Source of the DNA: a virus
Lineage: Duplodnaviria > Heunggongvirae > Uroviricota > Caudoviricetes
Direction: 5' to 3' (one strand)
IMG/VR virus record: IMGVR_UViG_3300042554_002438
Length of the DNA stretch: 64,000 nucleotides
Shown here: in pieces, positions 8,775 to 53,695 of the stretch
Layout: every line of letters begins with the position of its first letter
Position numbering within the stretch: the stretch's first letter is position 1
Notes under the pieces: generated by a model
Database searches by the model: none
Told to the model about the DNA's origin: nothing
What the model saw: only the letters and a program-made list of their open reading frames with translations
Position numbers and translations under genes: made by a program

Positions 8775-9131
8775 TTAAGATTTTTTGTAATAGATCGTAT
8801 CAGGTAAAGACCCAAACACGAACTTGGTTACGTCACATAACCACATTTTAATATCAAATGGTATACCCATGTAAGACTCAACCTTATATGTGGCACCAGA
8901 ACCATTCCCCTCATCATACAACCAACCATCCGAAATTTTTTTGAGCTCCTCAGCACCCTCAAATGGTTTATCGGACAATGCTATCCAAATATACCACTCA
9001 CCTTCACATAGCAAATCAAGCCAGGTGTCAGCACCAAGAACCATTTGTAGATCGGCTTTAGATCCTTCCCATTCTGGAAGATCAACAAACCAACCATTAA
9101 ATTCTTTATCAAATCTTAATCTTTGTTTCAT
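8775..9131 (-). CDS. hypothetical protein
   Basis: 118 aa ORF. Confidence 0.45.
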   Translation of the reverse strand: MKQRLRFDKEFNGWFVDLPEWEGSKADLQMVLGADTWLDLLCEGEWYIWIALSDKPFEGAEELKKISDGWLYDEGNGSGATYKVESYMGIPFDIKMWLCDVTKFVFGSLPDTIYYKKS

Positions 9132-9514
9132 AAACTACATTTAAACATATAGTTAAATATCTCACAATTTGAATTTAGTTTAGATAAATCTGGAAAGGTC
9201 ACATCACCTATATAGTTATTATCTATATGTGATATGTGTAACTCGGTGAACATGTGTGCATATTTTTCATATGTTTTTTTGCCACCAATGCACCAATCAA
9301 TAACTTCGATATCTGGATTCCAAAGTCCCCTGGTATCGATTACAACTTCACGACCCTTCAATGGTGGTAACTCTAGTGATGTGTTGTAGCCAACGAGTAA
9401 TCTACCACCCATGGTTTTTTCTTTGAAATGTTTGAAATCTTCGGAACTACGCCATAGCATTTTATTACCGATTCCTATGAACCCGAGATTATTTACAGCA
9501 ATTATAGCTTTCAT
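9128..9514 (-). CDS. dihydrofolate reductase
   Basis: IIAVNNLGFIGIGNKMLWRSSEDFKHFKEKTMGGRLLVGYNTSLELPPLKGREVV aligns to the DHFR N-terminal consensus (E. coli FolA, T4 Frd). Confidence 0.7.
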   Translation of the reverse strand: MKAIIAVNNLGFIGIGNKMLWRSSEDFKHFKEKTMGGRLLVGYNTSLELPPLKGREVVIDTRGLWNPDIEVIDWCIGGKKTYEKYAHMFTELHISHIDNNYIGDVTFPDLSKLNSNCEIFNYMFKCSL

Positions 9515-9825
9515 TTTGATAATAAATCAATTAGTATGTAAGACAATTTATAACCAGCGAATGCACCTAAAGCTGATGGTATTGGAAACACAATTAACTT
9601 ACCAAGTGATGTAACATACTTCGGTCGGTTAACAATTCTACCCATATAAAAGTAGTAGGTTATATAACCAAGAAGAACCGCTAGATCTGTTTTGGTTGCG
9701 ATAAACACAACCAACATAGCACCGATAAAACCAAACGTAAAATTGTCTCTGGACTCGGTAAAAACCTCACCAGGAGTTGCATCTTTATATTCTTTAACTA
9801 TTTGTTTTATCGTTGTCTTGCCCAT
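9511..9825 (-). CDS. membrane protein
   Basis: 104 aa with hydrophobic helices. Confidence 0.45.
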   Translation of the reverse strand: MGKTTIKQIVKEYKDATPGEVFTESRDNFTFGFIGAMLVVFIATKTDLAVLLGYITYYFYMGRIVNRPKYVTSLGKLIVFPIPSALGAFAGYKLSYILIDLLSK

Positions 9826-10081
9826 TTTGTTTTATTTTCTCAAGATATTCAATCATAGTTTCGGCGTCTTTTGGGTTAATGATTATTTCATCAAATGCGC
9901 CGTAATTTGACTGTCTACCGAATATATAATCAATAGCATATAAAATCCTATCACGCAATGATTTACGTTTCAAGTGTGGCTCGATGTATAGCGTATTATC
10001 TTCATCATCATACCAAATGGCAAATTGATGTTCGAGCGATTCACATTCACACACCAAGATTTCTCTATTAATCTTTTCCAT
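9794..10081 (-). CDS. hypothetical protein
   Basis: 95 aa ORF. Confidence 0.4.
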   Translation of the reverse strand: MEKINREILVCECESLEHQFAIWYDDEDNTLYIEPHLKRKSLRDRILYAIDYIFGRQSNYGAFDEIIINPKDAETMIEYLEKIKQNGQDNDKTNS

Positions 10082-10298
10082 CTTCTTTTTTAATATCCTC
10101 TCGAGTTAATTCTTTTTCAGCTTGGTGCATGAAGATAATCTCTTTTGTTTGTTCATCAACTGTGCAAGCGGCAATTGGTTTATCAACTCGGTAATGATAT
10201 TCTTCTCCTAGCATACCAACTTCTCCGTTGACAACTTCAAAGGCATCAAACTCCTCTGGTAGGGTGTTGAGCCACGTTTTTAATTCTCCTAAATTCAT
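10068..10298 (-). CDS. hypothetical protein
   Basis: 76 aa ORF. Confidence 0.4.
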   Translation of the reverse strand: MNLGELKTWLNTLPEEFDAFEVVNGEVGMLGEEYHYRVDKPIAACTVDEQTKEIIFMHQAEKELTREDIKKEDGKD

Positions 10299-11320
10299 AT
10301 ATCGTAAGGTGTTGTACTGAATGTTATCTTCTCGATACTCAAACAGTTTGTGTTTATTATTTTTTCGATAAACATAATAAAATCAGAAACAATATCAAAT
10401 GATTTTATTTGTTTGTTCAGGTATAGGTTGTAAACCCCAATTTCTTGAAGAACATCTGATTTATTGATTATTAAATCAGTCACACCGTTGATGTTAATTG
10501 CTTTGATCATATCGTCCAAGTCCAACCAATCAACTTGCCTCGGTCTACCAGTTGTTGCACCAAACTCATTACCAACTTCTCTTATCTTCACAAACAATGG
10601 GTCTGCACCTTCAAAGTTTTTGGCACCAACATATGTGCGATAAGCTTTTGCAACGCCGTACACTCTGTCAATTTTTTGTGCTGGTATTCCATTAAGGATG
10701 GCCCCACCAATTGTGCAATGTGATGATGTAACATATGGGTAATCACCCCAATCAATATCCAACTCAAAACCCTGAGCCCCTTCGCAAAGTATACTACAAC
10801 CGTCTTGCCCATTAAATAATCCGTATGTATCAACAACCATGTCGGCTAACATAGGAACATCAACAGCTCTAAGACCTTTTCGATAATACTTATCTCGGTA
10901 AGCTGGGCCATTCCCAGTTTTAGTCGTACCGATTTTACTATCCAAACTATCTTCGTGTAGATGTTGCTCGGTGATGATGTGAACACGTTTATCAATCAAT
11001 AAGTTCTCACGAACTTTAAATCCAGCTAATTCGAGTTCATCAATTTCTTGAATAAGTTTGTCTGGGTTGACCACACAACCAAGTCCAATAATTGATTTGA
11101 TTCCATACAATACACCAACTGGTATGAAATGTGTTACATATTTTTCACCATTGTGATATATCGTGTGACCAGCATTACCACCACCATTGTAGCGCATAAC
11201 ATAATCATACTCATCTGGCTTCTTAGCCAGAGCGTGGGCAACCTTGCCCTTTCCAGTGTCACCCGCTTGCAGGTCAACAATTACATCAGCTTTGCGTATC
11301 ATAGTGCGTGGTTTTCCCAA
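10295..11320 (-). CDS. purA: adenylosuccinate synthetase (short form)
   Basis: LQAGDTGKGKVAH P-loop and GGGNAGHT motif, as in PurA. Confidence 0.8.
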   Translation of the reverse strand: MGKPRTMIRKADVIVDLQAGDTGKGKVAHALAKKPDEYDYVMRYNGGGNAGHTIYHNGEKYVTHFIPVGVLYGIKSIIGLGCVVNPDKLIQEIDELELAGFKVRENLLIDKRVHIITEQHLHEDSLDSKIGTTKTGNGPAYRDKYYRKGLRAVDVPMLADMVVDTYGLFNGQDGCSILCEGAQGFELDIDWGDYPYVTSSHCTIGGAILNGIPAQKIDRVYGVAKAYRTYVGAKNFEGADPLFVKIREVGNEFGATTGRPRQVDWLDLDDMIKAININGVTDLIINKSDVLQEIGVYNLYLNKQIKSFDIVSDFIMFIEKIINTNCLSIEKITFSTTPYDI

Positions 11321-11796
11321 TAACCGTTAGGGTAATCAATATTAACATAAAGCATATAAGTTGTGTAACCTTTGCGCTCATCTTTTTTATAGTGATTCCA
11401 GGTAGCATCTTCATCCATAAATGGTCGCAAACCAATAGCTTTGAATTTCTCAACAAACCACTTACAAAGTTCATGGTGAATGACCATATCTTTTGTCTCG
11501 AGTTCAAAACGAACACAAACCCATGGTGTTGTCATATAACCATCGGATCCCCCACCATAACTCAAAAGTTCTGGATATAAAACGATACCGATTTTTGGTT
11601 TCCATTCGTCATTTTTAGAGTCTGGGTTAATCAAAAAAGGTGTTTTAACTTCCAAGTAATGTTCATCAACCTGTTTAAAATTTGGGTCGTGTAATTGTAA
11701 TCGATCAATAATTTGGTCGATTTCTTTGTCGATTTGTTCTCTTATATTTACTAACATAATTTTATTTAAAATAGGATTGGGTTGTTTCCAACCCAA
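11299..11796 (-). CDS. hypothetical protein
   Basis: 165 aa; overlaps the purA start, so the true start may be internal. Confidence 0.45.
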   Translation of the reverse strand: MGWKQPNPILNKIMLVNIREQIDKEIDQIIDRLQLHDPNFKQVDEHYLEVKTPFLINPDSKNDEWKPKIGIVLYPELLSYGGGSDGYMTTPWVCVRFELETKDMVIHHELCKWFVEKFKAIGLRPFMDEDATWNHYKKDERKGYTTYMLYVNIDYPNGYWENHAL

Positions 11797-11809
11797 TCCA
11801 TTGTTTTAA

Positions 11810-13672
11810 TTATTTTACCTCGGTTACAGTACCCTGTTCAGATTCTTTTTTCTCTTGGATTTGCTTTAACAATTCCATTCCAAGTAAGCCATTGATTGGG
11901 CTACTATCACCACTACCTGTGATAAGAATCTCAGGGATGATTTTGATACCATTTGTACCAATCATTTCGGTAACTTTAAGTTTACCAAAGTTTTCAACAC
12001 CCATAGCTTTAACTTGCTTTTCGTAAGCCTCAGCAGTTGATTTACCAATCGCGGAAATCTTAGATGCTTCAGCATCACCAGTCAATTTAATCTGCGTAGC
12101 ATCAGCTTCAGCGTTCAATTTCTTAGCTTCAGCTTGAGCGGCAGCTTTTAATTTCAAGGCTTGTGCTTCACCCTCAGATTTCTTAACAGCGGCCTCAGCT
12201 TCACGTTGAGAAATCTCAACCGATTGTTGTGCTGACACCATTTGTCCTTGCATATCGGCAAGTGCTTTAGCCGATTCAAGCGTCTTACGTTTATCTTGAG
12301 CTTTGCGTTGAGTGTCAAATGTTACCTCTTCTTCTTGTGCAATCTTACGGTCAGTAAGAGTTTTCATCAGAGAGTCTGGTGGTGTGATGTCACCAATAAG
12401 CGTATCAACCGCATGCACGTTGTATTCTTCAAGAACCGTGCTGATCTTATCTTTAGCAGCATTCTGTCTTTGTTGACGAGTTGATAAGAACGCAATCACA
12501 TCAGAATCTTGTGCCGAGTTACGGAAATAGTTACCGATGGTTGGTTCAAGAACTTGTGACACAAGGTTCTGCATTGAGCCGAAACGAGCAATTACTTTAG
12601 GCGCTTCGGTTGATGGGATGTGGATAATCTGTGAAACATCCAAATTGAATGGGAAACCGTCTTGTGAACGTACTGTGATGGTACTCAAGTTCTTATCAAG
12701 ATTGTGTGATTCATTACGAGCATTTGCCCAGTTAAGAACCAAGTTTGTTGTTGGTACTATCTCAATCTTCTGTGTATAAGGATTGATTGCGTATTTACCT
12801 GGATCCAATGGGGTTGCCCACACACCTTTCTGACCTTTTTTAACGATGTTACCGTGTTTAAAATCACTTCCAGTGGTGTCTTCACCATCTTCACCAACAT
12901 AAGAGATAACAACACCAACATGACCGATAGGAATGGATGTCATTTCTTTCTTCTCAACTTCGATTGCCCATGGGTTCAATGAATAAGAACCAGCTTGAAT
13001 AACTTGGATTTGTAAACCCCTTTGTCCACCATTAGCCAAAAACTTATCAAAGTCTTGGAAATTATTGTGACCGCTAACCACAGAACCAGCGATTGAACCA
13101 ATCTCAAGTGGTGTACCATCAAGTGCTGTAACAACGCCAACCATACCATCTTCAATGTATGTGATGTCAGCGAGGAATATCTCGAATAAATGGGTATTAA
13201 CACGATACACACCGTTGTTTAAATAACCAACTTGTTTACCACGTTGTCCACCTGTTGATAAAAACGCTCTAGCATCTTGGTAATCATCACAATCAACGTG
13301 TCGAGCCAAGATAGCACCCTTTGGTAACTGTGCGCCATCTTTAGCTGATAACAAGCCGATCTTACCTTTAGGTATTGTTGTTAAAGGGGCTTGTTCGATT
13401 TCGAATTGCCATATCCAGTAAGCCCAATATAAACCTGGGGCTAATGTGTCGGCCTGAAAGCCTGGTTCATTGTTTAAGGCGATAATCTTACCATCGGGTA
13501 ATTGTTTATTGGGGCCAAAAAGTACAAATTTTTTGGTCACCAAACCAATTTTGTCTTCAGGTATGATAACCATACCAAAGAACACTCGTAGTACGAACTT
13601 GTAGAATACTACCATGAGGATCGGGATTAAAACCCATGCGTAACCCAATACGCTAGTTAATTGTTCTGTCAT
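11810..13672 (-). CDS. SPFH/band-7 (flotillin-like) membrane protein
   Basis: N-terminal TM helix, SPFH core and a long Ala/Lys/Glu-rich coiled-coil C-terminus, as in flotillins. Confidence 0.7.
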   Translation of the reverse strand: MTEQLTSVLGYAWVLIPILMVVFYKFVLRVFFGMVIIPEDKIGLVTKKFVLFGPNKQLPDGKIIALNNEPGFQADTLAPGLYWAYWIWQFEIEQAPLTTIPKGKIGLLSAKDGAQLPKGAILARHVDCDDYQDARAFLSTGGQRGKQVGYLNNGVYRVNTHLFEIFLADITYIEDGMVGVVTALDGTPLEIGSIAGSVVSGHNNFQDFDKFLANGGQRGLQIQVIQAGSYSLNPWAIEVEKKEMTSIPIGHVGVVISYVGEDGEDTTGSDFKHGNIVKKGQKGVWATPLDPGKYAINPYTQKIEIVPTTNLVLNWANARNESHNLDKNLSTITVRSQDGFPFNLDVSQIIHIPSTEAPKVIARFGSMQNLVSQVLEPTIGNYFRNSAQDSDVIAFLSTRQQRQNAAKDKISTVLEEYNVHAVDTLIGDITPPDSLMKTLTDRKIAQEEEVTFDTQRKAQDKRKTLESAKALADMQGQMVSAQQSVEISQREAEAAVKKSEGEAQALKLKAAAQAEAKKLNAEADATQIKLTGDAEASKISAIGKSTAEAYEKQVKAMGVENFGKLKVTEMIGTNGIKIIPEILITGSGDSSPINGLLGMELLKQIQEKKESEQGTVTEVK

Positions 13673-13997: not shown

Positions 13998-15527
13998 TTA
14001 TAATTTATTTAAACGTTCACGAATTTCAGTTAATGTTGTTTGGTTGTGGAACTTACCATCTTCATAAATGGTTTGTAAGATTCCAGTTCCCTCTTGCTCC
14101 CAAGTACATTGAGTTAATACCTCATGGTCTTCAGTTACACAGATCAAACCTTTCAAAGATTTCTTGGTACCATCATCAGTTACTGGATCTTTGTAGATGT
14201 TGTAACCAACCTTTCCTTTTGGAATTAAAGCACTTCCCAAAAGTCCATCGGCTGAAGGTATAGTATCAAACTCCTCAACTTCAAACCAAGCACCTTTGGC
14301 TGCGAAACCTAAAGTGTCACGGGTATTCATTTGGTAAGTAAATGAACCAACACCCAATACAATGTTTGTTGCCGCAAATCCTTTTGCTTCCAATCTCTTG
14401 TAGATTTCAATTTGACGGTCTAATGTGATTGAATCTCCGTAGATTGCTCCGATGTGTGGGTCAAGAACCTTGTAACCTTGTTCATTGATTGTTCCACCAA
14501 AGATGTCCCAAAGTAATTCTATTACCCCGACTTCAGCAGGTGTTTTATACTCACCAGGCGCATCGGATAATTGTTCTTCTCTACCACAAATAATATCAAC
14601 TGGATCACCAGAGTCAGGACGAATTACTAACTTACCGTCACGAGCCATGATAGCTTCTTTGTTTGCTGGTAAGTATTCAGTAATCAACTTCCACAAATCA
14701 AATGTGTCAGATACAATTGATAGGATTCCATTCGGAAAATCTACCAACCAATCGGCAATCATTTGTTGTTCACCAACAGTAAAGATTTTTGTTGTTGATA
14801 CAGAGTGTTCAGATGCGTTAACCGAGTTAATGCACACTTCGTCTTTTGGTTCATTATAGAAATAACGAGCCCCTGGAATACAGATGATTGTATCTGAACC
14901 ACGGAACGATGTTGCATGTCCCATTCCACTAGTCAACATATCCCATGGTGATAAACCACGTGCTGAAAAGTCATGACACATAAAAGGAATTAACCAAGCT
15001 GTTGATGGGTCGGTTTTCATAACCCACTCAACAACATTACGTTTGTATTGCAATGCTATTGTTGCTGATGTGGATGGTTTCCAAGCCAACGAACTGATAA
15101 TTGTTTCCAAATACAATGTCAACCACGCAAACCCATCGACAGTATTGATGAAAGTCATGTGTGGAACATTTGGGTTTGTTTCAATACCTTCAGGTAGTGC
15201 TTTAACACGAATAGGTAAGTAACCTAATCTGTGTAGTGCAACGAAGTGTGATGCATCGTAATCCATTCCAAGATACAATGACATATCTTTTCCAAAGTTA
15301 ACCGCAACTTCCTCGGGTAAACTGAAAAAGTTCTCTTGAAATTCATCATGTAACCATTTAACAACCAATTGTTGTCCGAATGAAACGATTTTTGACACGC
15401 CTTTAGGTGCATACTTAACACTACGTGGAATCCATGTGCCGTACAAACGGGTGGTTCCAGGAGCTAACATTTTCTTGTGACCGATCTTATATCCGTCAGT
15501 GTAAAATAAACTTGTTGGTTTGAACAT
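13998..15527 (-). CDS. nadV: nicotinamide phosphoribosyltransferase (NAMPT/NadV)
   Basis: 509 aa; typical NAMPT start MFKPTSLFYTDGYKIGHKKM and family-wide similarity. Confidence 0.85.
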   Translation of the reverse strand: MFKPTSLFYTDGYKIGHKKMLAPGTTRLYGTWIPRSVKYAPKGVSKIVSFGQQLVVKWLHDEFQENFFSLPEEVAVNFGKDMSLYLGMDYDASHFVALHRLGYLPIRVKALPEGIETNPNVPHMTFINTVDGFAWLTLYLETIISSLAWKPSTSATIALQYKRNVVEWVMKTDPSTAWLIPFMCHDFSARGLSPWDMLTSGMGHATSFRGSDTIICIPGARYFYNEPKDEVCINSVNASEHSVSTTKIFTVGEQQMIADWLVDFPNGILSIVSDTFDLWKLITEYLPANKEAIMARDGKLVIRPDSGDPVDIICGREEQLSDAPGEYKTPAEVGVIELLWDIFGGTINEQGYKVLDPHIGAIYGDSITLDRQIEIYKRLEAKGFAATNIVLGVGSFTYQMNTRDTLGFAAKGAWFEVEEFDTIPSADGLLGSALIPKGKVGYNIYKDPVTDDGTKKSLKGLICVTEDHEVLTQCTWEQEGTGILQTIYEDGKFHNQTTLTEIRERLNKL

Positions 15528-15546: not shown

Positions 15547-16518
15547 TTAAAATACGTTTAATTGTTTAACTAATGAGTGAATTGTTTTGTGCCTTGAAAG
15601 CGTGTCAACGATAGTTCCGTCTTGAACATCCTTCACACTATTTGTTGTGTAGATACCATCAAAATATTCACTTAGGAAATCAAACCCAGCGCTGAAGATG
15701 CCATGAGTAACTATCAAATAGTTTTTACCGTGGTGTTTTGGGTGAACAGTACTTGATATTTTTCTGGCATCATTGACAGCTTTAGCGATTTCAATGAATG
15801 TTCTACCACCATCGCAGATGTCATCAATAATGAAAATATCTTTGTCGGCATCGTTTACTGAAATTGGTACGTTAGTGTAATCAATCTTACCAGTTTCAAT
15901 ATTACGATGTTTTGATGCGATGATAACTTCATGTCTATATTTGAGTTGTTCAGCACAATGAAACACTTTTTTCAAAGCACCAGCATCGGGTGATACTAAA
16001 CGTACACCATCGAAATTCATGGAGTCCCAAATTTCAAATCCTTTTGATAAAAAGTAATCTTTAAATGCGAAATAAAGTAAAACGGTATTGTCCCGTTTCT
16101 CAAAGTTATTGATGCATGCCTCAAGAACATCTGAGTGTGGGTCAAGGACTGTTACCTTTTCGTAACCCTGTGAGTTAATGATTGGTGCGATTACGTTCTT
16201 AACATAATTGATACCACCTTCCGTAAACTTACGGTCGCTTCTAGCACCCATACAATAAGGAATGTAAAGACGAATACGATTAACACCAACCTCTTTTAAC
16301 GCTTGTGTTGCACAGATAATAATTTCCAAATCCTGGAATGTATTTAAACGAGATTTGATTGTTATACCTTGCGAATTATCTTTAAGTGAACAAAAGGTAT
16401 TGTATCCATTTTCAACCAATCTCAATGATTGTTGTCCATCGGGAAAACGACTAATCTCATATTTGAATGATAGCTTATCGTTATCGTTATGGTTAACTAA
16501 ATTTAAAAGTTCCGCCAT
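15547..16518 (-). CDS. prs: ribose-phosphate pyrophosphokinase (PRPP synthetase)
   Basis: 323 aa with PRPP-binding motifs (DDICDGGRT, DAGALKK). Confidence 0.8.
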   Translation of the reverse strand: MAELLNLVNHNDNDKLSFKYEISRFPDGQQSLRLVENGYNTFCSLKDNSQGITIKSRLNTFQDLEIIICATQALKEVGVNRIRLYIPYCMGARSDRKFTEGGINYVKNVIAPIINSQGYEKVTVLDPHSDVLEACINNFEKRDNTVLLYFAFKDYFLSKGFEIWDSMNFDGVRLVSPDAGALKKVFHCAEQLKYRHEVIIASKHRNIETGKIDYTNVPISVNDADKDIFIIDDICDGGRTFIEIAKAVNDARKISSTVHPKHHGKNYLIVTHGIFSAGFDFLSEYFDGIYTTNSVKDVQDGTIVDTLSRHKTIHSLVKQLNVF

Positions 16519-17760: not shown

Positions 17761-17775
17761 ATTATTTTCTATTAG

Positions 17776-17849
17776 TGGGCCCTGCTGGGTTCGAACCAGC
17801 GACCACCTGATTATGAGTCAGACGCTCTAACCGACTGAGCTAAGGGCCC
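17776..17849 (-). tRNA. tRNA-Met (anticodon CAT)
   Basis: hand-folded cloverleaf: GGGCCCT acceptor, GCTC/GAGC D-stem, CTCATAA anticodon loop, TTCGAAC T-loop; no encoded CCA. Confidence 0.8.
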
Positions 17850-17879
17850 TAATTTTATACAAAGATAGTAATTAATTTT

Positions 17880-18383
17880 TTATTTTCCAAATCCAGTATC
17901 GGTAAAAAATCTGAGCGTCTCGGCCATAAATGTATTTGTATCAAAATTTGGGTCGAATGTTAAATTATCATCCACAATAATATTATCATCCTCATCAACT
18001 TTATATTGGTACATTTCAAAACTGTTTGGGGTAGTTTTTATAGGATCAACTTTAATAATATCACCCTCAAATTGAACCCCACATAGTTCACAAAAATGTA
18101 CAACTTTATAACTATTCGTATCAGGCATTGGGATTAGAATGTCTTTATGTGTTAAACTCATCGCCTTTGAACCATCTTCATTTGTGTGATTGCAACTCAA
18201 TTTTATCTCATAAATTTGTTTTTCATACGAAGTTATGTGATTATTTTTCGATTCGATTAAAATATCAACTTTTTTCTTGAGCTCTCGTTCAATGGAGTTT
18301 AGATCTCGAGTAACCTTTTCTTTATTAATCTCAAGTTCGATTATTTTTTTACGGCCCTCTATAAACGGATTCTTTGATTCCAT
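17880..18383 (-). CDS. hypothetical protein
   Basis: 167 aa with a possible C-x-x-C zinc ribbon. Confidence 0.45.
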   Translation of the reverse strand: MESKNPFIEGRKKIIELEINKEKVTRDLNSIERELKKKVDILIESKNNHITSYEKQIYEIKLSCNHTNEDGSKAMSLTHKDILIPMPDTNSYKVVHFCELCGVQFEGDIIKVDPIKTTPNSFEMYQYKVDEDDNIIVDDNLTFDPNFDTNTFMAETLRFFTDTGFGK

Positions 18384-18388
18384 AAAGA

Positions 18389-18823
18389 TTAACCATTTGT
18401 ATTTTTTAATTCTAATTCATAATATTTTACCATCAGAGATGCGCTGGCATAATTGGTGGCAAGTGGTATGTTATGTACATTACATATCCTCAAAAGCATG
18501 CTCACATCCACCTGATGTGGGTGGGCTTCAAGTGGGTCGATGAAAAAAACAACACCGTCAATTTTACCGTTAACAATCATAGATGCTATCTCCGCATCAC
18601 CACCGTAAGGCCCAGAGTTTAACTTGGTTACATTCGTCAAACCAGCGTGTTCAACGTGTTTACCTGTGGTTCCAGTAGCATATATGTTTACGTTGTTTTT
18701 AAAGAAATCGAGACGTTTCATAATGAATGAGACCATATCCGCTTTCTTACCATCATGTGCGATAATAGCAACATTAAGTTTTTTCCGATTCTCTTTGTCA
18801 GCTAAAAATTTATTCAACAACAT
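18389..18823 (-). CDS. mgsA: methylglyoxal synthase
   Basis: IAIIAHDGKK...YATGTTG...GPYGGDAEIASMIVNGKIDGVVFFIDPLEAHPHQVDV...NIPLATN aligns along its length to E. coli MgsA. Confidence 0.8.
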   Translation of the reverse strand: MLLNKFLADKENRKKLNVAIIAHDGKKADMVSFIMKRLDFFKNNVNIYATGTTGKHVEHAGLTNVTKLNSGPYGGDAEIASMIVNGKIDGVVFFIDPLEAHPHQVDVSMLLRICNVHNIPLATNYASASLMVKYYELELKNTNG

Positions 18824-18825: not shown

Positions 18826-19347
18826 TTAAAATTTAATTCTAAGACCCATTTTTTGCATAGCCAATAATGCCTCGGCGTTACCCATAGCATCATCAACGGG
18901 ATTGTGAGTATGTTTTGTTTTTCTATACAAACGTTTCCACTCCTGGTTCTTACTAGCATCCTTAACCAAACCACAATACAAATCACCGATACGTCTGCCA
19001 GAAAACCCGAATGGGTTTCTACCGCAGTACTTATGCATGTACCAGTTAATCCACTGCCAATCAAAGGCTAAGTTATCGCTGATAAAGGTTGGTTTACCTT
19101 CGGAATTTTTAACTAACCATTTTTCGAACTCGCTCATAACCTCATATGGTTCCCCAAACTGTTCATGCTCAGACCTTGAAAACCCACTGACAGCTAACGC
19201 ATCTGGTTTGTATTGATCAGTTAATGGTCTGATCTTACCATAAAACGTTTTTGATGTGTCGGACACTTTAACAACACCGAAACATACAATTGAATGTGTA
19301 CCAACTAATTCACCATCAGCCTCAACATCCACTACAAAATAACTCAT
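18826..19347 (-). CDS. DEDDh 3'-5' exonuclease (DnaQ-like)
   Basis: VVDVEADGE Exo I motif and HNPVDDAMGNAE Exo III motif. Confidence 0.55.
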   Translation of the reverse strand: MSYFVVDVEADGELVGTHSIVCFGVVKVSDTSKTFYGKIRPLTDQYKPDALAVSGFSRSEHEQFGEPYEVMSEFEKWLVKNSEGKPTFISDNLAFDWQWINWYMHKYCGRNPFGFSGRRIGDLYCGLVKDASKNQEWKRLYRKTKHTHNPVDDAMGNAEALLAMQKMGLRIKF

Positions 19348-19778
19348 ATCTTTACTAATTTTTTAATTTCTCTGTCAATATCGCGCTTTTTAATTGTCTC
19401 GCGTTTATCGTAATTCTTTTTACCCCTAGCAATAGCGATTCTACATTTTATCTTACCAGAACCATTCAAGTAAAACCAAAACGGAACGATTGTTAAACCT
19501 TTTGTCAAACTGTTCTGAATCTTTCGGATTTCTGTTCTGTGTAAAAGTAATTTTTTATCACGATTCTCATCATGACCAAAAAATTCGCTATTTGTGGTTA
19601 TTTTAAAATTTTTGATGAACATTTCGTCATCCTTGATATAGCAAAACGCATCAACTATGCTAATTTTACCATCCTTAATTGCTTTAACTTCAGAGCCAAA
19701 AAGAATAATACCAGCCTCATACTCTTGAAGGTATTCATAATCAAATTTTGCTTTTCTATTTGTAACTAAAGTTTTCAC
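19344..19778 (-). CDS. smpB: SsrA-binding protein SmpB
   Basis: NRKAKFDYEYLQEYEAGIILFGSEVKAIKDGKISIVDAF...KLLLHRTEIRK...IARGKKNYDKRETIKKRD collinear with E. coli SmpB. Confidence 0.85.
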   Translation of the reverse strand: MKTLVTNRKAKFDYEYLQEYEAGIILFGSEVKAIKDGKISIVDAFCYIKDDEMFIKNFKITTNSEFFGHDENRDKKLLLHRTEIRKIQNSLTKGLTIVPFWFYLNGSGKIKCRIAIARGKKNYDKRETIKKRDIDREIKKLVKI

Positions 19779-19864: not shown

Positions 19865-20500
19865 TTAAAAGTAAGTTTGTTCGAAATACAATACTTCAAA
19901 TTTGTTCTCTTCGTTAATTAATTCAATTGCATTAATTAAATCATTATATTCAACGACAGATTCTTTTTGACCAGTTCTATAAGTTTGTAAGAAATCAAAT
20001 GTAGTTAAGTCATTCCCGAATAGTTTTGAAGATGTTGTGTTGTACTTCATCATCAAACCTAACTCTAACTTATAAGCTTCTCTAACTATCTCACATAATC
20101 CAGAGAAAGTTCTCTTAGTATCAACTGATGGTATAGTTGGGATAATATTAAATCCAACCATATACTCTTGTAACCCTTTAGCGTGTACTAATTCGGTATC
20201 AGCCTCAGCGTCAAAGAAAGCGCCAGCTTTTTTATAGTTTCTATCGTGACACCAGTTAGCGGCGTTTCTATAAAAATAATGGGCTTCATATTCATCGGCA
20301 ATTCTACTAGTCAATTCAGCGACAGTTTCGCCAGGTAAGTTATACAACATTTGGCCCTCATCTTCCATCGGTTCAACGGAAACAGCAACGGGGGTGACAT
20401 CTTCAGCATCTGGTGTCATTGTAACCTCAGCCTCAGGTAATTTATTATCCCTTGCAATGTTCATAATCTTACTTTTCATTTCTTCTTTTGTAACATTCAT
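19865..20500 (-). CDS. ferritin-like protein
   Basis: EYEAHYFYRNAANWC...AEADTELVHAKGLQE resembles ferritin di-iron helices; about 60-aa N-terminal extension. Confidence 0.45.
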   Translation of the reverse strand: MNVTKEEMKSKIMNIARDNKLPEAEVTMTPDAEDVTPVAVSVEPMEDEGQMLYNLPGETVAELTSRIADEYEAHYFYRNAANWCHDRNYKKAGAFFDAEADTELVHAKGLQEYMVGFNIIPTIPSVDTKRTFSGLCEIVREAYKLELGLMMKYNTTSSKLFGNDLTTFDFLQTYRTGQKESVVEYNDLINAIELINEENKFEVLYFEQTYF

Positions 20501-22529: not shown

Positions 22530-23138
22530 TTATATTAGATGTTTCAATATTTTTTCTTTAATACCAGATTGTTTTATACCCTCGAAATCTCTAGGCGTCC
22601 AGACAAAATTTTCTAAACCCCAATCGCGATCAAATGGGCCATATGAACTATTCTCAACATGTATACCCATGTGTAAATCATCAACAGCGACCCAATGAGT
22701 AACTTCTGGATGATCTCTTAACCAACGAAGGATTTCAAAATGTCTTTCTTGCTCCCTATCAGAGGTTCGAGTCCACGGAAAATCGTTATGGTCAGGGACA
22801 AACCCTTCCTCTAACCAATTTGTAAAATGAAACACCTCTGTTCCATCAATTGGTCTTTTAATAATACCTTTAGATTCATAGTAGTCACCTAATTCTTCAA
22901 TTGTCGCGTGTAATCGCCAATCGGAACTAACAACAATTTCAGCGCCAGTTTCTTCAAGTATTTCATTGAGCACTTTAACAGCTTTATCGTCAAAATTATC
23001 GAACCTATATTCAACAGGAATCTCTTTCGAGGTCATGGACAACTTTCTACCACCCCACTTTTCTTGTTTTTTGTATCGACTACCCCAATTGTTTGACAAA
23101 CAAATGACCCCGTCATTATCTAAAAATATAACTTTCAT
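22530..23138 (-). CDS. HAD-superfamily phosphatase (paralog 1)
   Basis: MKVIFLDNDGVI motif I (DxDGV) and VVSSDWR motif II. Confidence 0.55.
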   Translation of the reverse strand: MKVIFLDNDGVICLSNNWGSRYKKQEKWGGRKLSMTSKEIPVEYRFDNFDDKAVKVLNEILEETGAEIVVSSDWRLHATIEELGDYYESKGIIKRPIDGTEVFHFTNWLEEGFVPDHNDFPWTRTSDREQERHFEILRWLRDHPEVTHWVAVDDLHMGIHVENSSYGPFDRDWGLENFVWTPRDFEGIKQSGIKEKILKHLI

Positions 23139-23139
23139 C

Positions 23140-23712
23140 TTAATAATTTAAATCAATGATATCTTTTTCCAACATTGCTTTTGCAATTTCATAGTAATGT
23201 TGGTTAAACCCATCTTTATTTCTTGGTGATGGTAATACATGCACAAAATGATTACGTTGCCCGTAAAGCATATCAGAATCATCATCTATGATGATATAGT
23301 TTTCAACACCAGACTTATCCATGTACTCTTGCTGTACAACTTCATCCCAATTAATATGGTGGAATTGTAGATCGTTATTTAGGTAATACTCTATCTCCAT
23401 TCCTCGCGGAATTGAATAACCTTTGGCTCTCATACTAGGCGTGATGCCAATGATTTTACCTGCCATCTCTTCCATCTCCCAAACCTTTCTCATAAAGTCT
23501 ATACCACCGTGTCTCCAGGTTGAACTAACGACAATTTCGGCGCCAGTTTCAAGAATTAATTTGTTCATTAACTCTTTACTCCAAGAGCAAAATGTTTGAT
23601 AATGATCTTTGCGGCCATCTTCCCAAACCCATTCTTTGTATTGACACTCACCACTTCGATAAGCATTCTCGCAGTTCAACACACCGTCTATGTCAAGGAA
23701 TATTACTTTCAT
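23140..23712 (-). CDS. HAD-superfamily phosphatase (paralog 2)
   Basis: MKVIFLDIDGVL and VVSSTWR; tandem paralog of the preceding gene. Confidence 0.55.
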   Translation of the reverse strand: MKVIFLDIDGVLNCENAYRSGECQYKEWVWEDGRKDHYQTFCSWSKELMNKLILETGAEIVVSSTWRHGGIDFMRKVWEMEEMAGKIIGITPSMRAKGYSIPRGMEIEYYLNNDLQFHHINWDEVVQQEYMDKSGVENYIIIDDDSDMLYGQRNHFVHVLPSPRNKDGFNQHYYEIAKAMLEKDIIDLNY

Positions 23713-27513: not shown

Positions 27514-27811
27514 ATGTCAACCATGGTTTTTTTTGTTGGGTGTTTAGTGCCTCAACTATCTTATTATAATTTTCTTCATAAAATCTTTCACCGTCTTCCG
27601 AATTTGCCCAAAATAGAAATCCTGGTTCAGTCTGCGTCCTCCCCAGGATTTCTTTTGTTGCTCTTCTATCTTTTTTAAGAAATGAAATACTAACATAGTT
27701 CAGTATAAACTTCCCATCAGTCTTTGACCAATACGCCAGTTGGCCAAATTTTTGTTTGTTCTTTACTCTGGCATTTTCAATAATCTCTATTAAAAATTTA
27801 ACATTTCCCAT
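27473..27811 (-). CDS. hypothetical protein
   Basis: 112 aa ORF. Confidence 0.4.
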   Translation of the reverse strand: MGNVKFLIEIIENARVKNKQKFGQLAYWSKTDGKFILNYVSISFLKKDRRATKEILGRTQTEPGFLFWANSEDGERFYEENYNKIVEALNTQQKKPWLTYEYEIKKPEQKEE

Positions 27812-29193
27812 TAACTAGATTCTTCCATATCAACCACACCCGAGTCTTTAACTATACCCTCAAGAACCTTAAACTCAAAAGATTTGTGTTTGTAAATTCT
27901 AGGTACCAGACCAGATTCTAATCTGACACATACACCCTCACGGATATGGGTATCATCGAGCATTGATTTACCTTTAGAATAAATATCAACAAGTTCAGTA
28001 ATCTTGTCATTAAAATCCCTATCACCGTTTATACTTGGATAGGTTAATTCCATTTCAATTCTTCTGAAACGTGTTATCTCTGGAACATGTTTTACACCTA
28101 TCTCATTACATCTTTTAACAACATCATCCCAAGTGTAATCAACTGATTGGCCATCTGGGTTGGTCATTGTCATACGGTACACATAAAAGTCTTGTTGGGC
28201 TGTCGAACAACCATATGAGTAAACCATGTGCTTTTTATCGCCCATGTTGGAATACTGTTTCGTGAATTCCTTATCACCCATTTTACTTGTATCAACAGAT
28301 GGCATGATTGGCGTATTCTCATTCTCATAACCAACAATCTCAAGATAAACAGTCTCACCTTTTCTTAGATTACCTTTGAAAAGAGCGAAAGCTTTATCTC
28401 TTATGGTTGGATCATGGAATTGGGTTGCATTTGATTTAGCCTCCTCCAAAACAACTCTGCGTGTACCAGTTAAATAAGCCCATTCAGTCTCGTTTATCTT
28501 GATACCAAGCTTAATCAATAATCTTTCAAACCAATTTAAATCACGGTCAACCAACACATGCCCAACTCTATGAGAAGTTCCGTGTAGTTTTTCTGTGATG
28601 ACAACCAAATCCTCACGATTTATTTGATGTACATTCTTACCAAAATGTTCGGTATCAATATGTTCCTTGAACATAACCGAAGTTTTTGCCACTCTGGTTT
28701 TTTTACCTTGGTTTTGTTGAGCGGCTTTTATTGTGTTCGGGTTGATGTACTTATTACAAATTGGTACACCACCCCATTCATCAATCTCAAGACCCTCATC
28801 AACCAGACCAGTCACATAAATGAAACCAAAACTGTGTAATGGTGTCCAGAAACCATCTGAGATTTCCCCACGAAATCTCTGGGCCCTAACCCTACGGTTA
28901 TCATCAAACATACCAGCTTTATCATCTGGGAATTTGTTCTTTGTTTTATCTCGATATAAGTTATTCGCATGGCAAAACTCATGAGATAACTGACCATCAC
29001 ATGGGAAGTATACCCCCCAATGATCTTCTTTGCAATCTAAACCAACCACCACTTGATTACCGTGGCATGTCGCTAATTGCACCTTATCCGCATTAGGATG
29101 CGGTCTAACGTTTTTAAGTTTTGTTACTATTCCTTTATACATATTTTTTACTTTGATTCTACCATTACGTAAGTACCCTCTACCATACCCCAT
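27811..29193 (-). CDS. ATP-dependent RNA ligase (Rnl2/Rnl5-like) with an N-terminal OB/tRNA-binding-like domain
   Basis: nucleotidyltransferase motif I ITEKLHGTSHRV (KxHGxx, as in T4 Rnl2 EKIHGTN); N-terminal ...RPHPNADKVQLATC... resembles tRNA-binding OB folds. Confidence 0.6.
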   Translation of the reverse strand: MGYGRGYLRNGRIKVKNMYKGIVTKLKNVRPHPNADKVQLATCHGNQVVVGLDCKEDHWGVYFPCDGQLSHEFCHANNLYRDKTKNKFPDDKAGMFDDNRRVRAQRFRGEISDGFWTPLHSFGFIYVTGLVDEGLEIDEWGGVPICNKYINPNTIKAAQQNQGKKTRVAKTSVMFKEHIDTEHFGKNVHQINREDLVVITEKLHGTSHRVGHVLVDRDLNWFERLLIKLGIKINETEWAYLTGTRRVVLEEAKSNATQFHDPTIRDKAFALFKGNLRKGETVYLEIVGYENENTPIMPSVDTSKMGDKEFTKQYSNMGDKKHMVYSYGCSTAQQDFYVYRMTMTNPDGQSVDYTWDDVVKRCNEIGVKHVPEITRFRRIEMELTYPSINGDRDFNDKITELVDIYSKGKSMLDDTHIREGVCVRLESGLVPRIYKHKSFEFKVLEGIVKDSGVVDMEESS

Positions 29194-31728: not shown

Positions 31729-32172
31729 TTAATCGATTATAGTTTCAATTGTATGGGGCACTACCCATCTAGCGCAGTCTTGGGGTAAGCGATGGATATG
31801 TTTATAGTTATTTATATAACCCATCATGTTTGCTGAACCGACAGCATTAGCTGAATGAACCATTACCTTACAAACAGGCGCACCATTCAACCACTGTTCA
31901 ACTAACCATTTAGTGCAGTCCATACCAGTTTTTTCGGTGATGTTATCATAGTTCAATTGATAATTGTGATAAACATTTGTGTGCCATTCTTTCATCGCAC
32001 TATCACCAAGATCATGATCAAGTGATATTAAATCAATATTCTCTAAACCAATTTCGGTTATTTTGGAAACAAACTCATCGTAGTCTCTGACAACAGTCCA
32101 CTCGATTGTCATGTGTGTTGACGGGTTAGGTAAAGGCGTCCTAAGATCGTCTAAGTATATATTATATCTCAT
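31729..32172 (-). CDS. hypothetical protein
   Basis: 147 aa ORF. Confidence 0.45.
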   Translation of the reverse strand: MRYNIYLDDLRTPLPNPSTHMTIEWTVVRDYDEFVSKITEIGLENIDLISLDHDLGDSAMKEWHTNVYHNYQLNYDNITEKTGMDCTKWLVEQWLNGAPVCKVMVHSANAVGSANMMGYINNYKHIHRLPQDCARWVVPHTIETIID

Positions 32173-45958: not shown

Positions 45959-46000
45959 TTTCTATAATATTTACTGAAATAAATATTAAGAATTAGCGTT

Positions 46001-46035
46001 AAAAACAAAAAAACCGAATTATTTATTCGGTTTTT
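46001..46035 (-). terminator. rho-independent terminator
   Basis: ccgaattatttattcgg hairpin with flanking A- and T-runs; overlaps the stop codon of 46023..46406. Confidence 0.55.
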
Positions 46036-46406: not shown

Positions 46407-46427
46407 GATTAAATTTTATTTTTTTTA

Positions 46428-48080: not shown

Positions 48081-48082
48081 AA

Positions 48083-50412: not shown

Positions 50413-50415
50413 AGT

Positions 50416-53310: not shown

Positions 53311-53319
53311 AAATTTCTG

Positions 53320-53695
53320 TGGAGTCGGAGGGATTCGAACCCTCGTCTCGTTTAGCCATTCAATAATTCTCATTCACATGCTTAGTTCATTTTTCTAAAC
53401 AAACAAAATATTTGTCTTCACTAACCCAGAAGTTCAATAAAACTGGAATACCTTTTTTGGAGTTCCCACCTCCCACCTGGCATCTAAGGGTTTTTGCAGT
53501 TTTAACTGACAGTTGTTGGCTTACGCCAATTCGTAGTCTGCAAACTCAACTGGCTGACCGTTCAACACGATGTTGCCTTCAGCGTCAATGTAGCTTTCGC
53601 CATCTGAAATTGTGTATAGGTTATTTAAGTGTTTCCGATACTAACACCACATGCAAATTAAAGAACGAATCTACCGATCGATTCCAGTCGACCCC
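53320..53695 (-). ncRNA. ssrA: candidate tmRNA (ssrA)
   Basis: 376-nt RNA with a tRNA-Ala-like tRNA-like domain: 5' GGGGTCG pairs with 3' CGACTCC (G3-U70 wobble, A73); GAGGG-TTCGAAT-CCCTC T-arm; 5' GGGGTCGACTGGAATCGATCGG resembles the tmRNA consensus GGGGCUGAUUCUGGAUUCGACGGG; internal frame ...GCA GAC TAC GAA TTG GCG TAA; SmpB is encoded at 19344..19778. Confidence 0.55.

What the first reader, a model, noticed from the sequence alone, without database searches (positions are those of the whole stretch)
18389..18823. Methylglyoxal synthase in a phage
Near full-length collinearity with MgsA, including the catalytic His/Asp region. Methylglyoxal is a toxic electrophile produced from DHAP. A phage copy could throttle host glycolysis, act against co-infecting phages or competitors, or contribute to host killing.
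Basis: partly seen in the sequence, partly recalled or inferred. Interest (0 to 1): 0.55.

Follow-up and report, generated by a model that had tools for sequence, protein, structure and literature searches.

The report
Methylglyoxal synthase gene in jumbo phage
A roughly 299-kb bacteriophage carries an apparently functional copy of the bacterial enzyme that turns the glycolytic intermediate DHAP into toxic methylglyoxal plus free phosphate; hundreds of uncultured large phages carry the same gene, and nobody has tested what it does for them.

Summary
Window 18389..18823 (- strand) is a 144-aa ORF that passes NCBIfam's methylglyoxal synthase equivalog model NF003559 (156.6 bits, cutoff 84). It keeps all 12 active-site and phosphate-binding residues of E. 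coli MgsA. Its predicted fold matches solved MgsA structures, not the CarB MGS-like domain.

The window is phage DNA: endolysin, tail-collar proteins, an RNA-repair toolkit, 27 tRNAs, tmRNA plus SmpB, and the NARP1 NAD+-rebuilding pair. The identical protein lies on contigs of 298.7 and 298.8 kb.

The gene is not a one-off or a contaminant. At least 353 IMG/VR viral contigs encode relatives, and 29 of the fetched loci have a T4-type capsid gene within 10 kb. The phage sequences form one clade, about 50-55% identical to the nearest cellular MgsA, under strong purifying selection (dN/dS about 0.06-0.16). No verified cultured phage genome in INPHARED has it, and PHROGs has no matching family. The literature lists viral mgsA only in gene catalogues.

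Most likely it makes methylglyoxal and phosphate from host DHAP. Whether phosphate release, relief of triose-phosphate build-up, or methylglyoxal toxicity is the selected effect is unresolved. It is a new member of a known kind, of moderate interest.

The parts
18389..18823 (-). mgsA coding sequence, 144 aa, methylglyoxal synthase (EC 4.2.3.3), short type without the E. coli C-terminal Arg150 tail
   Evidence: ORF; NF003559 156.6 bits above cutoff 84; PDB MgsA hits to E=7.5e-31; AlphaFold model pLDDT 85.3 with the top 26 Foldseek hits all MgsA
18743..18757 (-). AHDGKK motif: His23, Asp24, Lys27 (E. coli His19, Asp20, Lys23), phosphate/substrate binding
   Evidence: Alignment; conserved in 119/120 homologs, the 120th gapped at these columns; coordinates checked
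18665..18676 (-). TGTT motif: Thr50, Thr52, Thr53 (E. coli Thr45, Thr47, Thr48), phosphoryl-binding loop
18596..18616 (-). SGPYGGD motif: Ser70, Gly71 and the catalytic base Asp76 (E. coli Ser65, Gly66, Asp71)
   Evidence: Asp invariant in 120/120 homologs
18506..18538 (-). DPLEAHPHQVD motif: Asp96, catalytic His103, Asp106 (E. coli Asp91, His98, Asp101)
   Evidence: invariant in 120/120 homologs
18785..18823 (-). N-terminal 13-residue extension (MLLNKFLADKENR) absent from most relatives, which are 126-135 aa; predicted helix of low confidence
   Evidence: Homolog lengths and coverage; pLDDT 57 for residues 1-10

Best explanation
The ORF encodes a catalytically competent methylglyoxal synthase carried as an auxiliary metabolic gene by a roughly 299-kb jumbo phage. 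The host is probably an aquatic member of the Bacteroidota. SHOWN: it is an MgsA by sequence, active-site residues and predicted fold. It sits in a tight, same-strand phage gene block, and the synteny is conserved in independent assemblies. It belongs to a monophyletic phage-specific MgsA clade present on hundreds of viral contigs and kept under strong purifying selection. INFERRED: during infection it converts host dihydroxyacetone phosphate into methylglyoxal plus inorganic phosphate. My preferred reading of the selected effect follows the established physiology of bacterial MgsA. The enzyme acts as a phosphate-releasing overflow valve from the triose-phosphate pool. It frees phosphate for the very large phage nucleotide demand and prevents sugar-phosphate build-up when GAPDH, which needs phosphate and NAD+, becomes limiting. 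The phage enzyme is of the short type. It lacks the C-terminal Arg150 tail that strengthens cooperative phosphate inhibition in E. coli MgsA, so it probably escapes part of the host's control. Methylglyoxal toxicity would be tolerated or would help as a side effect in a cell that is going to lyse anyway. Rough confidences: it is a real phage-encoded MgsA enzyme, about 0.9; phosphate release or overflow is the main selected function, about 0.4.
For: Identity: NF003559 equivalog 156.6 bits against cutoff 84; PDB hits all MgsA; 12 of 12 active-site residues conserved here and in 119-120 of the 120 nearest homologs; AlphaFold2 model pLDDT 85.3, pTM 0.80; Foldseek top 26 hits all MgsA (TM to target 0.87-0.91 for the short B. 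subtilis and Thermus forms), CarB domains only at 14-18% identity and E of 2.5e-5 or weaker. Phage origin: endolysin, tail-collar proteins, RNA ligase, CCA-adding enzyme, Thg1, ClpP; 27 tRNAs; tmRNA; the identical protein on contigs of 298,717 and 298,814 bp. The PfkB-ferritin-SmpB-exonuclease-MGS-...-Namat-Band_7 synteny is conserved on independent contigs up to 270 kb. GC 37.2% and GC3 35.9% match the neighbours. Family: 353 IMG/VR contigs encode relatives; 29 fetched loci have a Gp23-type capsid gene within 10 kb; the neighbour-joining tree puts all 27 sampled phage sequences in one clade with no cellular member, and the next branch out (P0121, 62% identical) is also on a phage-like contig. 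The nearest cellular sequences are 52-55% identical: a Fibrobacteria MAG, Fervidobacterium, and P0148, which lies next to PGK and GAPDH. Selection: pN 0.10-0.26 with synonymous sites saturated, dN/dS about 0.06-0.16; MgsA is 84-90% identical in the sister phages, against 31-48% and 57-60% for the two flanking hypothetical genes. Regulation: no C-terminal tail or Arg150 equivalent; that tail raises cooperativity toward phosphate when added to the short Thermus enzyme (PMC4133812). Context: the phage also carries the NARP1 NAD+-reconstitution genes about 1.9 kb away, so it is adapted to NAD+-depleted hosts in which GAPDH would stall.
Against: No enzymology or infection data exist for any phage MgsA; activity is inferred from sequence. 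TIGR00160 falls 5 bits below its trusted cutoff. Nothing in the sequence distinguishes a phosphate-release benefit from a benefit of methylglyoxal itself. No phosphate-stress gene (pstS, phoH) was seen in the roughly 60 window ORFs scanned, and only 64 kb of about 299 kb is available. No methylglyoxal detoxification gene (glyoxalase, DJ-1, aldo-keto reductase) was found in the window, so carbon recovery to lactate or pyruvate would depend on the host. No partner gene co-occurs with MgsA in more than a third of loci, so context gives little functional guidance. Host assignment is indirect. It rests on a NAMPT-like segment 75% identical at nucleotide level to Tenacibaculum phage PTm1, a Flavobacterium phage among the closest cultured-phage capsids at about 41% alongside a Microcystis phage, and a SusC-like receptor gene in a related contig.
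Confidence: 0.6

Rival explanations
1. Methylglyoxal itself is the point. The phage makes a reactive electrophile to arrest host growth and macromolecular synthesis (host takeover), to damage competing or superinfecting phage DNA, or to speed cell death. This is essentially the first reader's proposal.
For: The enzyme is intact and strongly conserved. It is of the short type without the Arg150 tail, hence probably less restrained. No detoxification gene accompanies it in the window. It lies among accessory and takeover-type genes rather than in a metabolic operon. Methylglyoxal toxicity to bacteria is established knowledge.
Against: Methylglyoxal reacts with guanine and with proteins indiscriminately, so it would also hit the replicating phage genome and phage proteins. 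No phage self-protection function was found. Phages have far more specific host shut-off tools. There is no experimental support in the literature searched.
Confidence: 0.25
2. MgsA opens a bypass of GAPDH that needs neither NAD+ nor phosphate (DHAP to methylglyoxal to D-lactate to pyruvate). It would work alongside the neighbouring NARP1 genes as part of a counter-defence against NAD+-depleting abortive-infection systems.
For: In this sub-clade MgsA lies about 1.9 kb from the Adps-like and Namat genes; Namat matches PDB 9W5X at E=3.7e-113. NADAR, SIR2 and Nuc_deoxyri_tr2 genes occur in related MgsA loci. A PRS-like or Namat-like gene lies within 10 kb of MgsA in about 15 of 91 loci.
Against: The association is confined to some sub-clades. 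In others MgsA sits beside capsid genes or ClpP. The bypass yields no ATP and needs host glyoxalases.
Confidence: 0.08
3. Methylglyoxal, or lactaldehyde or lactate derived from it, feeds a phage-specific biosynthetic pathway such as a glycan or nucleic-acid modification.
For: The window holds many sugar-modifying genes: PfkB kinase, carbamoyltransferase, C-methyltransferase and GDP-mannose dehydratase.
Against: None of these genes co-occurs consistently with MgsA across loci. No reductase or glyoxalase is adjacent. No known pathway of this kind starts from MgsA.
Confidence: 0.04
4. It is not a phage gene or not an enzyme: bacterial contamination, a chimeric assembly, or a decayed or non-catalytic MGS-like domain.
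For: All 22 MgsA matches in the INPHARED phage collection are unannotated records. The two inspected are bacterial chromosomal DNA labelled as phage: dapB-mgsA-cca-birA, and minCD-rodA-mgsA. Such artefacts therefore exist.
Against: Here the gene is separated from phage genes by 2 and 5 nt, shares their strand and GC content, and recurs in the same synteny in many independent assemblies. All catalytic residues are intact and under purifying selection. The fold matches MgsA and not CarB.
Confidence: 0.02

Closest known systems
Bacterial methylglyoxal synthase MgsA (EC 4.2.3.3), short type as in Bacillus subtilis (PDB 6F2C) and Thermus (1WO8, 2XW6)
   Same: Single MGS domain of about 130 aa. All catalytic and phosphate-binding residues are present. 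44-46% identity and TM-score 0.87-0.91 to these structures. It lacks the long C-terminal tail.
   Different: It is encoded by a phage and belongs to a separate phage-only clade that is at most about 55% identical to any cellular sequence sampled. It has clade-typical motifs GKKADM, GGDA(E/Q)IA and HPHQVD where E. coli has DHCKQM, GGDQQVG and VPHDPD. It carries a 13-residue N-terminal extension. The Crh-type regulation known from Bacillus is not expected.
E. coli-type MgsA (PDB 1B93, 1EGH) with allosteric phosphate control
   Same: Same reaction chemistry is expected, with the Asp71 base and His98. 39% identity.
   Different: The C-terminal roughly 20 residues, including Arg150, are missing. 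Arg150 forms the inter-subunit salt bridge that transmits the phosphate signal (PMC4133812). The MgsA of a flavobacterium (Elizabethkingia, 6PHE) is this long type and is not closer to the phage protein than the Bacillus or Thermus enzymes are.
Viral 'mgsA' entries in metagenomic auxiliary-gene catalogues (Lake Baikal scaffold NODE_24_length_120194; plastisphere and brine-pool viromes)
   Same: Probably the same phage gene family: large T4-like aquatic phage scaffolds annotated by KEGG as mgsA (PMC8066274, PMC12397222, PMC11252502).
   Different: Those papers only list the gene under 'propanoate' or 'methane' metabolism. They do not check residues, phylogeny or distribution, and they propose no function. 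I could not compare their sequences directly.
Classical phage auxiliary metabolic genes that rewire host central carbon and phosphate metabolism (cyanophage talC, CP12, pstS, phoH)
   Same: Works alike in principle: a host-derived metabolic enzyme kept by a large lytic phage to redirect fluxes toward phage replication (established knowledge, not tested here).
   Different: The reaction is different and the product is toxic. The gene was not acquired recently from the host lineage but is an old phage lineage.
MGS-like domains of CarB (allosteric domain) and PurH
   Same: Same fold superfamily; Pfam PF02142 covers both.
   Different: Only 14-18% identity and far weaker Foldseek scores. Those are domains of large multidomain proteins without the MgsA catalytic set. 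The window protein is stand-alone and has the full set.

Membership tests
Methylglyoxal synthase MgsA (EC 4.2.3.3) | MGS-like domain (Pfam PF02142) as a stand-alone protein of about 125-155 aa | tested here: met
   PF02142 at E=3.5e-16, 59.6 bits against cutoff 24.1; 144 aa, single domain
Methylglyoxal synthase MgsA (EC 4.2.3.3) | Score above the curated cutoff of an equivalog-level family model | tested here: met
   NCBIfam NF003559: 156.6 bits against cutoff 84
Methylglyoxal synthase MgsA (EC 4.2.3.3) | Score above the trusted cutoff of TIGR00160 (MGSA equivalog) | tested here: not met
   141.7 bits against cutoff 146.9, with E=1.5e-41. This is a 5-bit shortfall of a divergent clade, not a missing feature.
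Methylglyoxal synthase MgsA (EC 4.2.3.3) | Catalytic base Asp71 and His98, with Asp91 and Asp101 (E. coli numbering) | tested here: met
   Asp76, His103, Asp96 and Asp106 in the window protein; invariant in 120/120 nearest homologs
Methylglyoxal synthase MgsA (EC 4.2.3.3) | Phosphoryl-binding residues His19, Asp20, Lys23, Thr45, Thr47, Thr48, Ser65, Gly66 | tested here: met
   All conserved in the window protein and in 119-120 of 120 homologs
Methylglyoxal synthase MgsA (EC 4.2.3.3) | MgsA three-dimensional fold | tested here: met
   AlphaFold2 pLDDT 85.3; Foldseek top 26 PDB hits are all MgsA, E down to 3.3e-13, rmsd about 1.8 A
Methylglyoxal synthase MgsA (EC 4.2.3.3) | Homohexameric assembly | not testable with these tools
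   Only a monomer model could be made
Methylglyoxal synthase MgsA (EC 4.2.3.3) | Conversion of DHAP to methylglyoxal and phosphate | not testable with these tools
   Needs an enzyme assay or complementation
E. coli-type allosteric MgsA | C-terminal tail providing Arg150 for the inter-subunit salt bridge with Asp20 | tested here: not met
   The alignment ends about 13 residues short and has no conserved C-terminal Arg, in the window protein or across the phage clade. Role of the tail: PMC4133812.
Phage auxiliary metabolic gene | Flanked on both sides by phage genes on a viral genome, recurring in independent viral assemblies | tested here: met
CarB/PurH-type MGS-like regulatory or cyclohydrolase domain | Domain embedded in a large multidomain protein and lacking the MgsA catalytic residue set | tested here: not met
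   Stand-alone protein with the full catalytic set. CarB and CPS1 hits are only 14-18% identical with E of 2.5e-5 or weaker.

The most novel reading that the evidence does not exclude
A whole lineage of aquatic jumbo phages deliberately switches on methylglyoxal production in infected cells. The gene could act as a counter-defence bypass that keeps triose-phosphate flux and phosphate recycling going when host immunity drains NAD+; it sits beside the NARP1 NAD+-rebuilding genes here. Alternatively, methylglyoxal could serve as a chemical effector that arrests the host or rival phages. Either would be a new class of phage metabolic manipulation based on a toxic electrophile.
Probability: 0.15. 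Interest if true: 0.7.

Novelty: new member of a known kind. Interest (0 to 1): 0.42.

Why it matters
MgsA is usually treated as a risky emergency valve of bacterial glycolysis. A conserved, phage-specific clade of it exists on hundreds of large environmental phage genomes, and it is kept more conserved than its flanking hypothetical genes. This implies that making methylglyoxal and/or freeing phosphate from triose phosphates pays off during infection. Related scaffolds have been reported to recruit up to 8.8% of virome reads in Lake Baikal (PMC8066274), so the gene could affect carbon and phosphorus flow in infected freshwater bacteria. It is directly testable by enzyme assay, complementation and measurement of methylglyoxal or phosphate. 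No cultured phage is yet known to carry it, and that is the main obstacle.

Tried and rejected
(1) Generic MGS-like domain (CarB, PurH): rejected by the residue check and fold search.

(2) Host contamination or chimera: rejected by 2-5 nt gene spacing, matching GC content, and synteny in independent contigs.

(3) Precedent in cultured phages: tblastn against INPHARED gave 22 records, all unannotated. The two inspected were UNVERIFIED records of bacterial chromosome (Listeria dapB-mgsA-cca-birA; Clostridia-like minCD-rodA-mgsA). PHROGs had no matching family.

(4) Recent capture from a Bacteroidota host: not supported. The flavobacterial MgsA 6PHE is no closer than the Bacillus or Thermus enzymes, and the phage clade is monophyletic.

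(5) A conserved partner gene: clustering 2229 ORFs from 91 loci found none present in more than about a third of loci. The frequent neighbours are capsid-module genes in one sub-clade.

(6) Glyoxalase, DJ-1 or aldo-keto reductase in the window: none among about 60 ORFs scanned with Pfam. About 40 short ORFs were not scanned.

(7) The single-protein scan of GTDB genomes gave only 3 loci because its peptide patterns were too specific. The exhaustive 50%-representative search supplied cellular relatives instead.

(8) The listing of cluster members gave no organism names for the nearest non-phage clusters.

(9) Literature searches for functional work on phage MgsA found only catalogue mentions.

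Full report
OBSERVATION. It has an ATG start and 144 codons. It begins 2 nt after the stop of the upstream gene and ends 5 nt before the next gene on the same strand. Pfam finds the MGS-like domain (PF02142, E=3.5e-16). NCBIfam's equivalog model for methylglyoxal synthase, NF003559, scores 156.6 bits against a cutoff of 84. The older TIGR00160 model scores 141.7 bits, 5 bits under its trusted cutoff. Every match among solved structures is a methylglyoxal synthase, the best being B. subtilis 6F2C at E=7.5e-31.

IS IT A TRUE MgsA OR ONLY AN MGS-LIKE DOMAIN?

The 39% identity and the hits to PDB entries 1B93 and 1EGH are consistent with it being correct. The window protein keeps His19, Asp20, Lys23, Thr45, Thr47, Thr48, Ser65, Gly66, the catalytic base Asp71, Asp91, His98 and Asp101. 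These correspond to window residues H23, D24, K27, T50, T52, T53, S70, G71, D76, D96, H103 and D106.

(ii) The same twelve positions are conserved in 119-120 of the 120 closest database homologs.

(iii) An AlphaFold2 model built on a 49-sequence alignment has pLDDT 85.3 and pTM 0.80. Its 26 best Foldseek matches in the PDB are all MgsA, with rmsd about 1.8 A and TM-score 0.87-0.91 relative to the short Bacillus and Thermus enzymes. The carbamoyl-phosphate synthetase MGS-like domains appear only at 14-18% identity and E of 2.5e-5 or weaker.

The refutation criterion is therefore not met. One difference from the E. coli enzyme is clear: the C-terminal tail with Arg150 is missing. No conserved C-terminal arginine exists anywhere in the phage clade. 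According to PMC4133812, that tail forms the inter-subunit salt bridge carrying the allosteric phosphate signal. Adding it to the naturally short Thermus enzyme raises the Hill coefficient from 1.5 to 1.99. The phage enzyme is thus of the short, less cooperative type.

IS THE WINDOW A PHAGE? The window has 35% GC, and nearly all genes lie on one strand with small intergenic gaps. Its recognisable content is as follows.
- Lysis and tail: an endolysin and two tail-collar-domain proteins.
- RNA repair and tRNA maturation: RNA ligase, a CCA-adding enzyme fused to a HAD domain, Thg1, RlaP, cREC_REC, and two HAD_SAK_2 proteins.
- RNA genes: 27 tRNA genes and a tmRNA, plus SmpB.
- Other: ClpP, thioredoxin, DHFR, PurA and a GMP-reductase-like protein.
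- NAD+ reconstitution: a Namat/Adps-like pair.

The identical MgsA protein is encoded on contigs of 298,717 bp (JGI 3300042475) and 298,814 bp (GCA_043537205.1), with the same neighbours. A sister contig is in IMG/VR (L009, 85% identity). The MgsA gene has the same GC content (37.2%) and GC3 (35.9%) as its neighbours. I conclude that it is a resident gene of a roughly 299-kb jumbo phage.

The host is not shown. Three indirect hints point to Bacteroidota. A 340-nt NAMPT-like segment is 75% identical to Tenacibaculum phage PTm1. A SusC-like TonB-dependent receptor gene lies in a related MgsA-bearing contig. A Flavobacterium phage (about 41% identity) is among the closest cultured-phage capsids to the capsid gene next to MgsA in another sub-clade, alongside a Microcystis phage.

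HOW COMMON IS IT? The word-indexed protein search returned 3958 hits. The best 120 are all at least 64% identical. I looked at the genomic context of six of them.
- P0004 and P0013 (83-93% identical) lie in the same syntenic block as the window, PfkB-ferritin/DUF5856-SmpB-exonuclease-hypothetical-MGS-...-Namat-Band_7-PurA, on contigs up to 270 kb.
- P0048 (70%) lies on a 292-kb contig among small unknown genes, ClpP and ThyA.
- P0093 (69%) lies 2.4 kb from a T4-type Gp23 capsid gene and the prohead protease.
- P0121 (62%) lies on a phage-like contig with SmpB, NADAR and HAD_SAK_2 genes.
- P0148 (52%) is cellular, lying near PGK and GAPDH.

A profile-guided scan of IMG/VR found 353 viral contigs encoding a relative, many of them 100-272 kb long. 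Of the fetched loci, 29 have a Gp23 homolog within 10 kb.

In a neighbour-joining tree of 99 sequences, all 27 sampled phage sequences form one clade with no cellular intruder. The tree included phage sequences, single-domain representatives from the exhaustive 50%-cluster search, and reference enzymes. The next branches out are P0121 (phage-like contig), uncultured sequences, and a Fibrobacteria MAG at 54% identity. In the exhaustive search only 7 of 2958 representatives reach E below 1e-30, which again shows a gap between the phage clade and cellular MgsA. The MgsA of a flavobacterium (Elizabethkingia, 6PHE) is no closer than those of Bacillus or Thermus, so this is not a recent host capture.

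Selection is strongly purifying. Synonymous sites are saturated while pN is 0.10-0.26, and dN/dS is about 0.06-0.16 where it can be computed. In the sister phages MgsA is 84-90% identical, while the two flanking hypothetical proteins are only 31-48% and 57-60% identical.

PRECEDENT. No verified cultured phage genome appears to have the gene. The 22 tblastn matches in INPHARED are all unannotated records. The two I inspected are marked UNVERIFIED and carry ordinary bacterial chromosome synteny: Listeria dapB-mgsA-cca-birA, and a Clostridia-like PBP2-minC-minD-rodA-mgsA. PHROGs v4 has no family matching the protein.

In the searchable literature, viral mgsA appears only as an item in auxiliary-gene lists:
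- Lake Baikal viromes, on a 120-kb T4-like scaffold recruiting up to 8.8% of reads in one sample (PMC8066274).
- Plastisphere viromes (PMC12397222).
- A deep-sea brine pool (PMC11252502).

None of these analyses the protein or proposes a role. Searches for functional work found nothing.

MECHANISM. What is shown: an intact MgsA active site in a phage gene that has been kept for a long time. What follows from established enzymology: the protein should convert DHAP into methylglyoxal and inorganic phosphate. What is inferred: why that helps the phage.

In bacteria MgsA is understood as a bypass that opens when phosphate is scarce and triose phosphates pile up. It returns phosphate to the pool at the cost of making a toxic product. 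A large lytic phage that must build a roughly 300-kb genome many times over has an acute phosphate and nucleotide demand, and the infected cell need not survive. A less tightly phosphate-inhibited, short-type MgsA therefore fits an auxiliary gene that frees phosphate and relieves sugar-phosphate stress. I rank this first, at about 0.4.

The enzyme comes with no detoxification partner in the window. Against it, methylglyoxal would also damage phage DNA and proteins.

A third, more speculative reading links the gene to its neighbours here. MgsA lies about 1.9 kb from an Adps-like gene and a Namat gene; Namat matches PDB 9W5X at E=3.7e-113, and those structures are described in PMC12774641. These are the NARP1 pathway that rebuilds NAD+ after host defences destroy it. 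GAPDH needs both NAD+ and phosphate, so a methylglyoxal bypass would keep triose phosphates draining in an NAD+-depleted cell. That linkage holds only in some sub-clades; elsewhere MgsA sits beside capsid genes or ClpP. Clustering all neighbouring ORFs found no partner present in more than about a third of loci. I give this reading under 0.1.

COMPARISON AND NOVELTY. By every sequence and structure criterion I could test, the protein is a member of the MgsA family. The hexameric state and the activity could not be tested. It is not a member of the E. coli-type allosteric subgroup, because the Arg150 tail is absent. It works like other phage auxiliary metabolic genes that redirect central metabolism.

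The new points relative to the literature are these:
- the residue-level and fold-level confirmation;
- the scale of the family (at least 353 viral contigs);
- its monophyly and age;
- its absence from verified cultured phage genomes and from PHROGs;
- the short-type architecture.

This makes it a new member of a known kind, not a new kind of system. Interest is moderate (0.42). A specialist would find a conserved phage gene for a toxic electrophile noteworthy and testable, but not astonishing, and the gene has already been listed in catalogues.

OTHER THINGS SEEN. Rfam finds a full-length tmRNA at 53317..53695 (78.8 bits) that ARAGORN missed. Together with SmpB at 19344..19778, the phage has a complete trans-translation pair; SmpB also occurs in Lak and other huge phages. 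The window also carries a tyrosinase-like gene with a lipoprotein-like N-terminus, a ferritin-like gene, a low-GC sugar-modification cluster, and the NARP1 pair. In the window MgsA and the adjacent 167-aa hypothetical gene are in the opposite order from all sister contigs, and a tRNA-Met gene follows them.

Noticed in passing
window 53317-53695 (-) and 19344-19778 (-): Full-length tmRNA (Rfam RF00023, 78.8 bits, E=6e-29), missed by ARAGORN, plus an SmpB gene (Pfam E=6e-48). The phage encodes a complete trans-translation pair. SmpB homologs also occur in Lak and other huge phages.
   Followed up: partly
window 13998-15527 (-) and 15547-16518 (-): The 'NAMPT' is a close homolog of the phage Namat structures 9W5X/9W5W (E=3.7e-113, against about 1e-37 for classical NAMPT). 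Its upstream neighbour is a divergent PRPP-synthetase-like protein. Together they look like the NARP1 NAD+-reconstitution counter-defence pathway (Adps + Namat), about 1.9 kb from MgsA.
   Followed up: partly
window 6469-7920 (-): A 483-aa protein with tyrosinase / polyphenol-oxidase domains (Pfam E=1.5e-26) and a lipoprotein-like N-terminus (MKKILILFILMFGLLWLISC). This is an unusual gene for a phage.
   Followed up: no
window 17775-18823 (-); L001 and L003-L005 about 9300-10400: Gene order differs from all sister contigs. Here the order is exonuclease-MGS-hyp167-tRNA-Met; in relatives it is exonuclease-hyp166/171-MGS. MgsA and its neighbour have swapped places. MgsA is much more conserved (84-90%) than that neighbour (31-48%).
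   Followed up: yes
window 22530-44525: Dense RNA-repair and tRNA-maturation toolkit next to the 27 tRNA genes: two HAD_SAK_2 proteins (22530-23712), RNA ligase (27811-29193), cREC_REC (31729-32172), a P-loop kinase (32169-32567), RlaP (34366-35460), a CCA-adding enzyme fused to HAD_SAK_1 on the + strand (38522-40606), and Thg1 (43683-44525).
   Followed up: partly
window 19865-20500 (-): Ferritin-like protein (Pfam E=4e-15) with a 60-residue acidic N-terminal extension. The syntenic gene in relatives is annotated DUF5856 or ferritin.
   Followed up: no
window 46000-52300 (-) and 61148-62958 (+): Low-GC (28-30%) cluster with a carbamoyltransferase (46428-48080) and a C-methyltransferase (51041-52264). 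Two + strand genes, a GDP-mannose 4,6-dehydratase and an epimerase-like gene, suggest a phage-encoded sugar modification pathway.
   Followed up: no
L099 (OR848172.1) and L100 (MT835478.1): Records labelled as phage in GenBank/INPHARED that carry mgsA are marked UNVERIFIED and show bacterial chromosome synteny (dapB-mgsA-cca-birA; PBP2-minC-minD-rodA-mgsA). They are host DNA, not phage genes.
   Followed up: yes
L014 1275-4028 (-); L016 15915-16103 (+): Related MgsA-bearing phage contigs carry a 917-aa SusC-like TonB-dependent receptor gene (CarboxypepD_reg + Plug) and a ribosomal protein S21-like gene. The receptor gene hints at Bacteroidota hosts.
   Followed up: no
window 57400-60300 (-): The tRNA-rich stretch has raised GC (up to 46%) and gaps of 200-700 nt between tRNA genes. 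These hold no convincing ORF and no Rfam hit at gathering threshold, so other structured RNAs may be present.
   Followed up: no
window 9128-13672, 29911-30702 and 55124-56164 (-): Further metabolic genes: DHFR, PurA, a 620-aa SPFH/Band_7 protein, a dATP/dGTP diphosphohydrolase-like protein, and a GMP-reductase/IMPDH-like protein.
   Followed up: no
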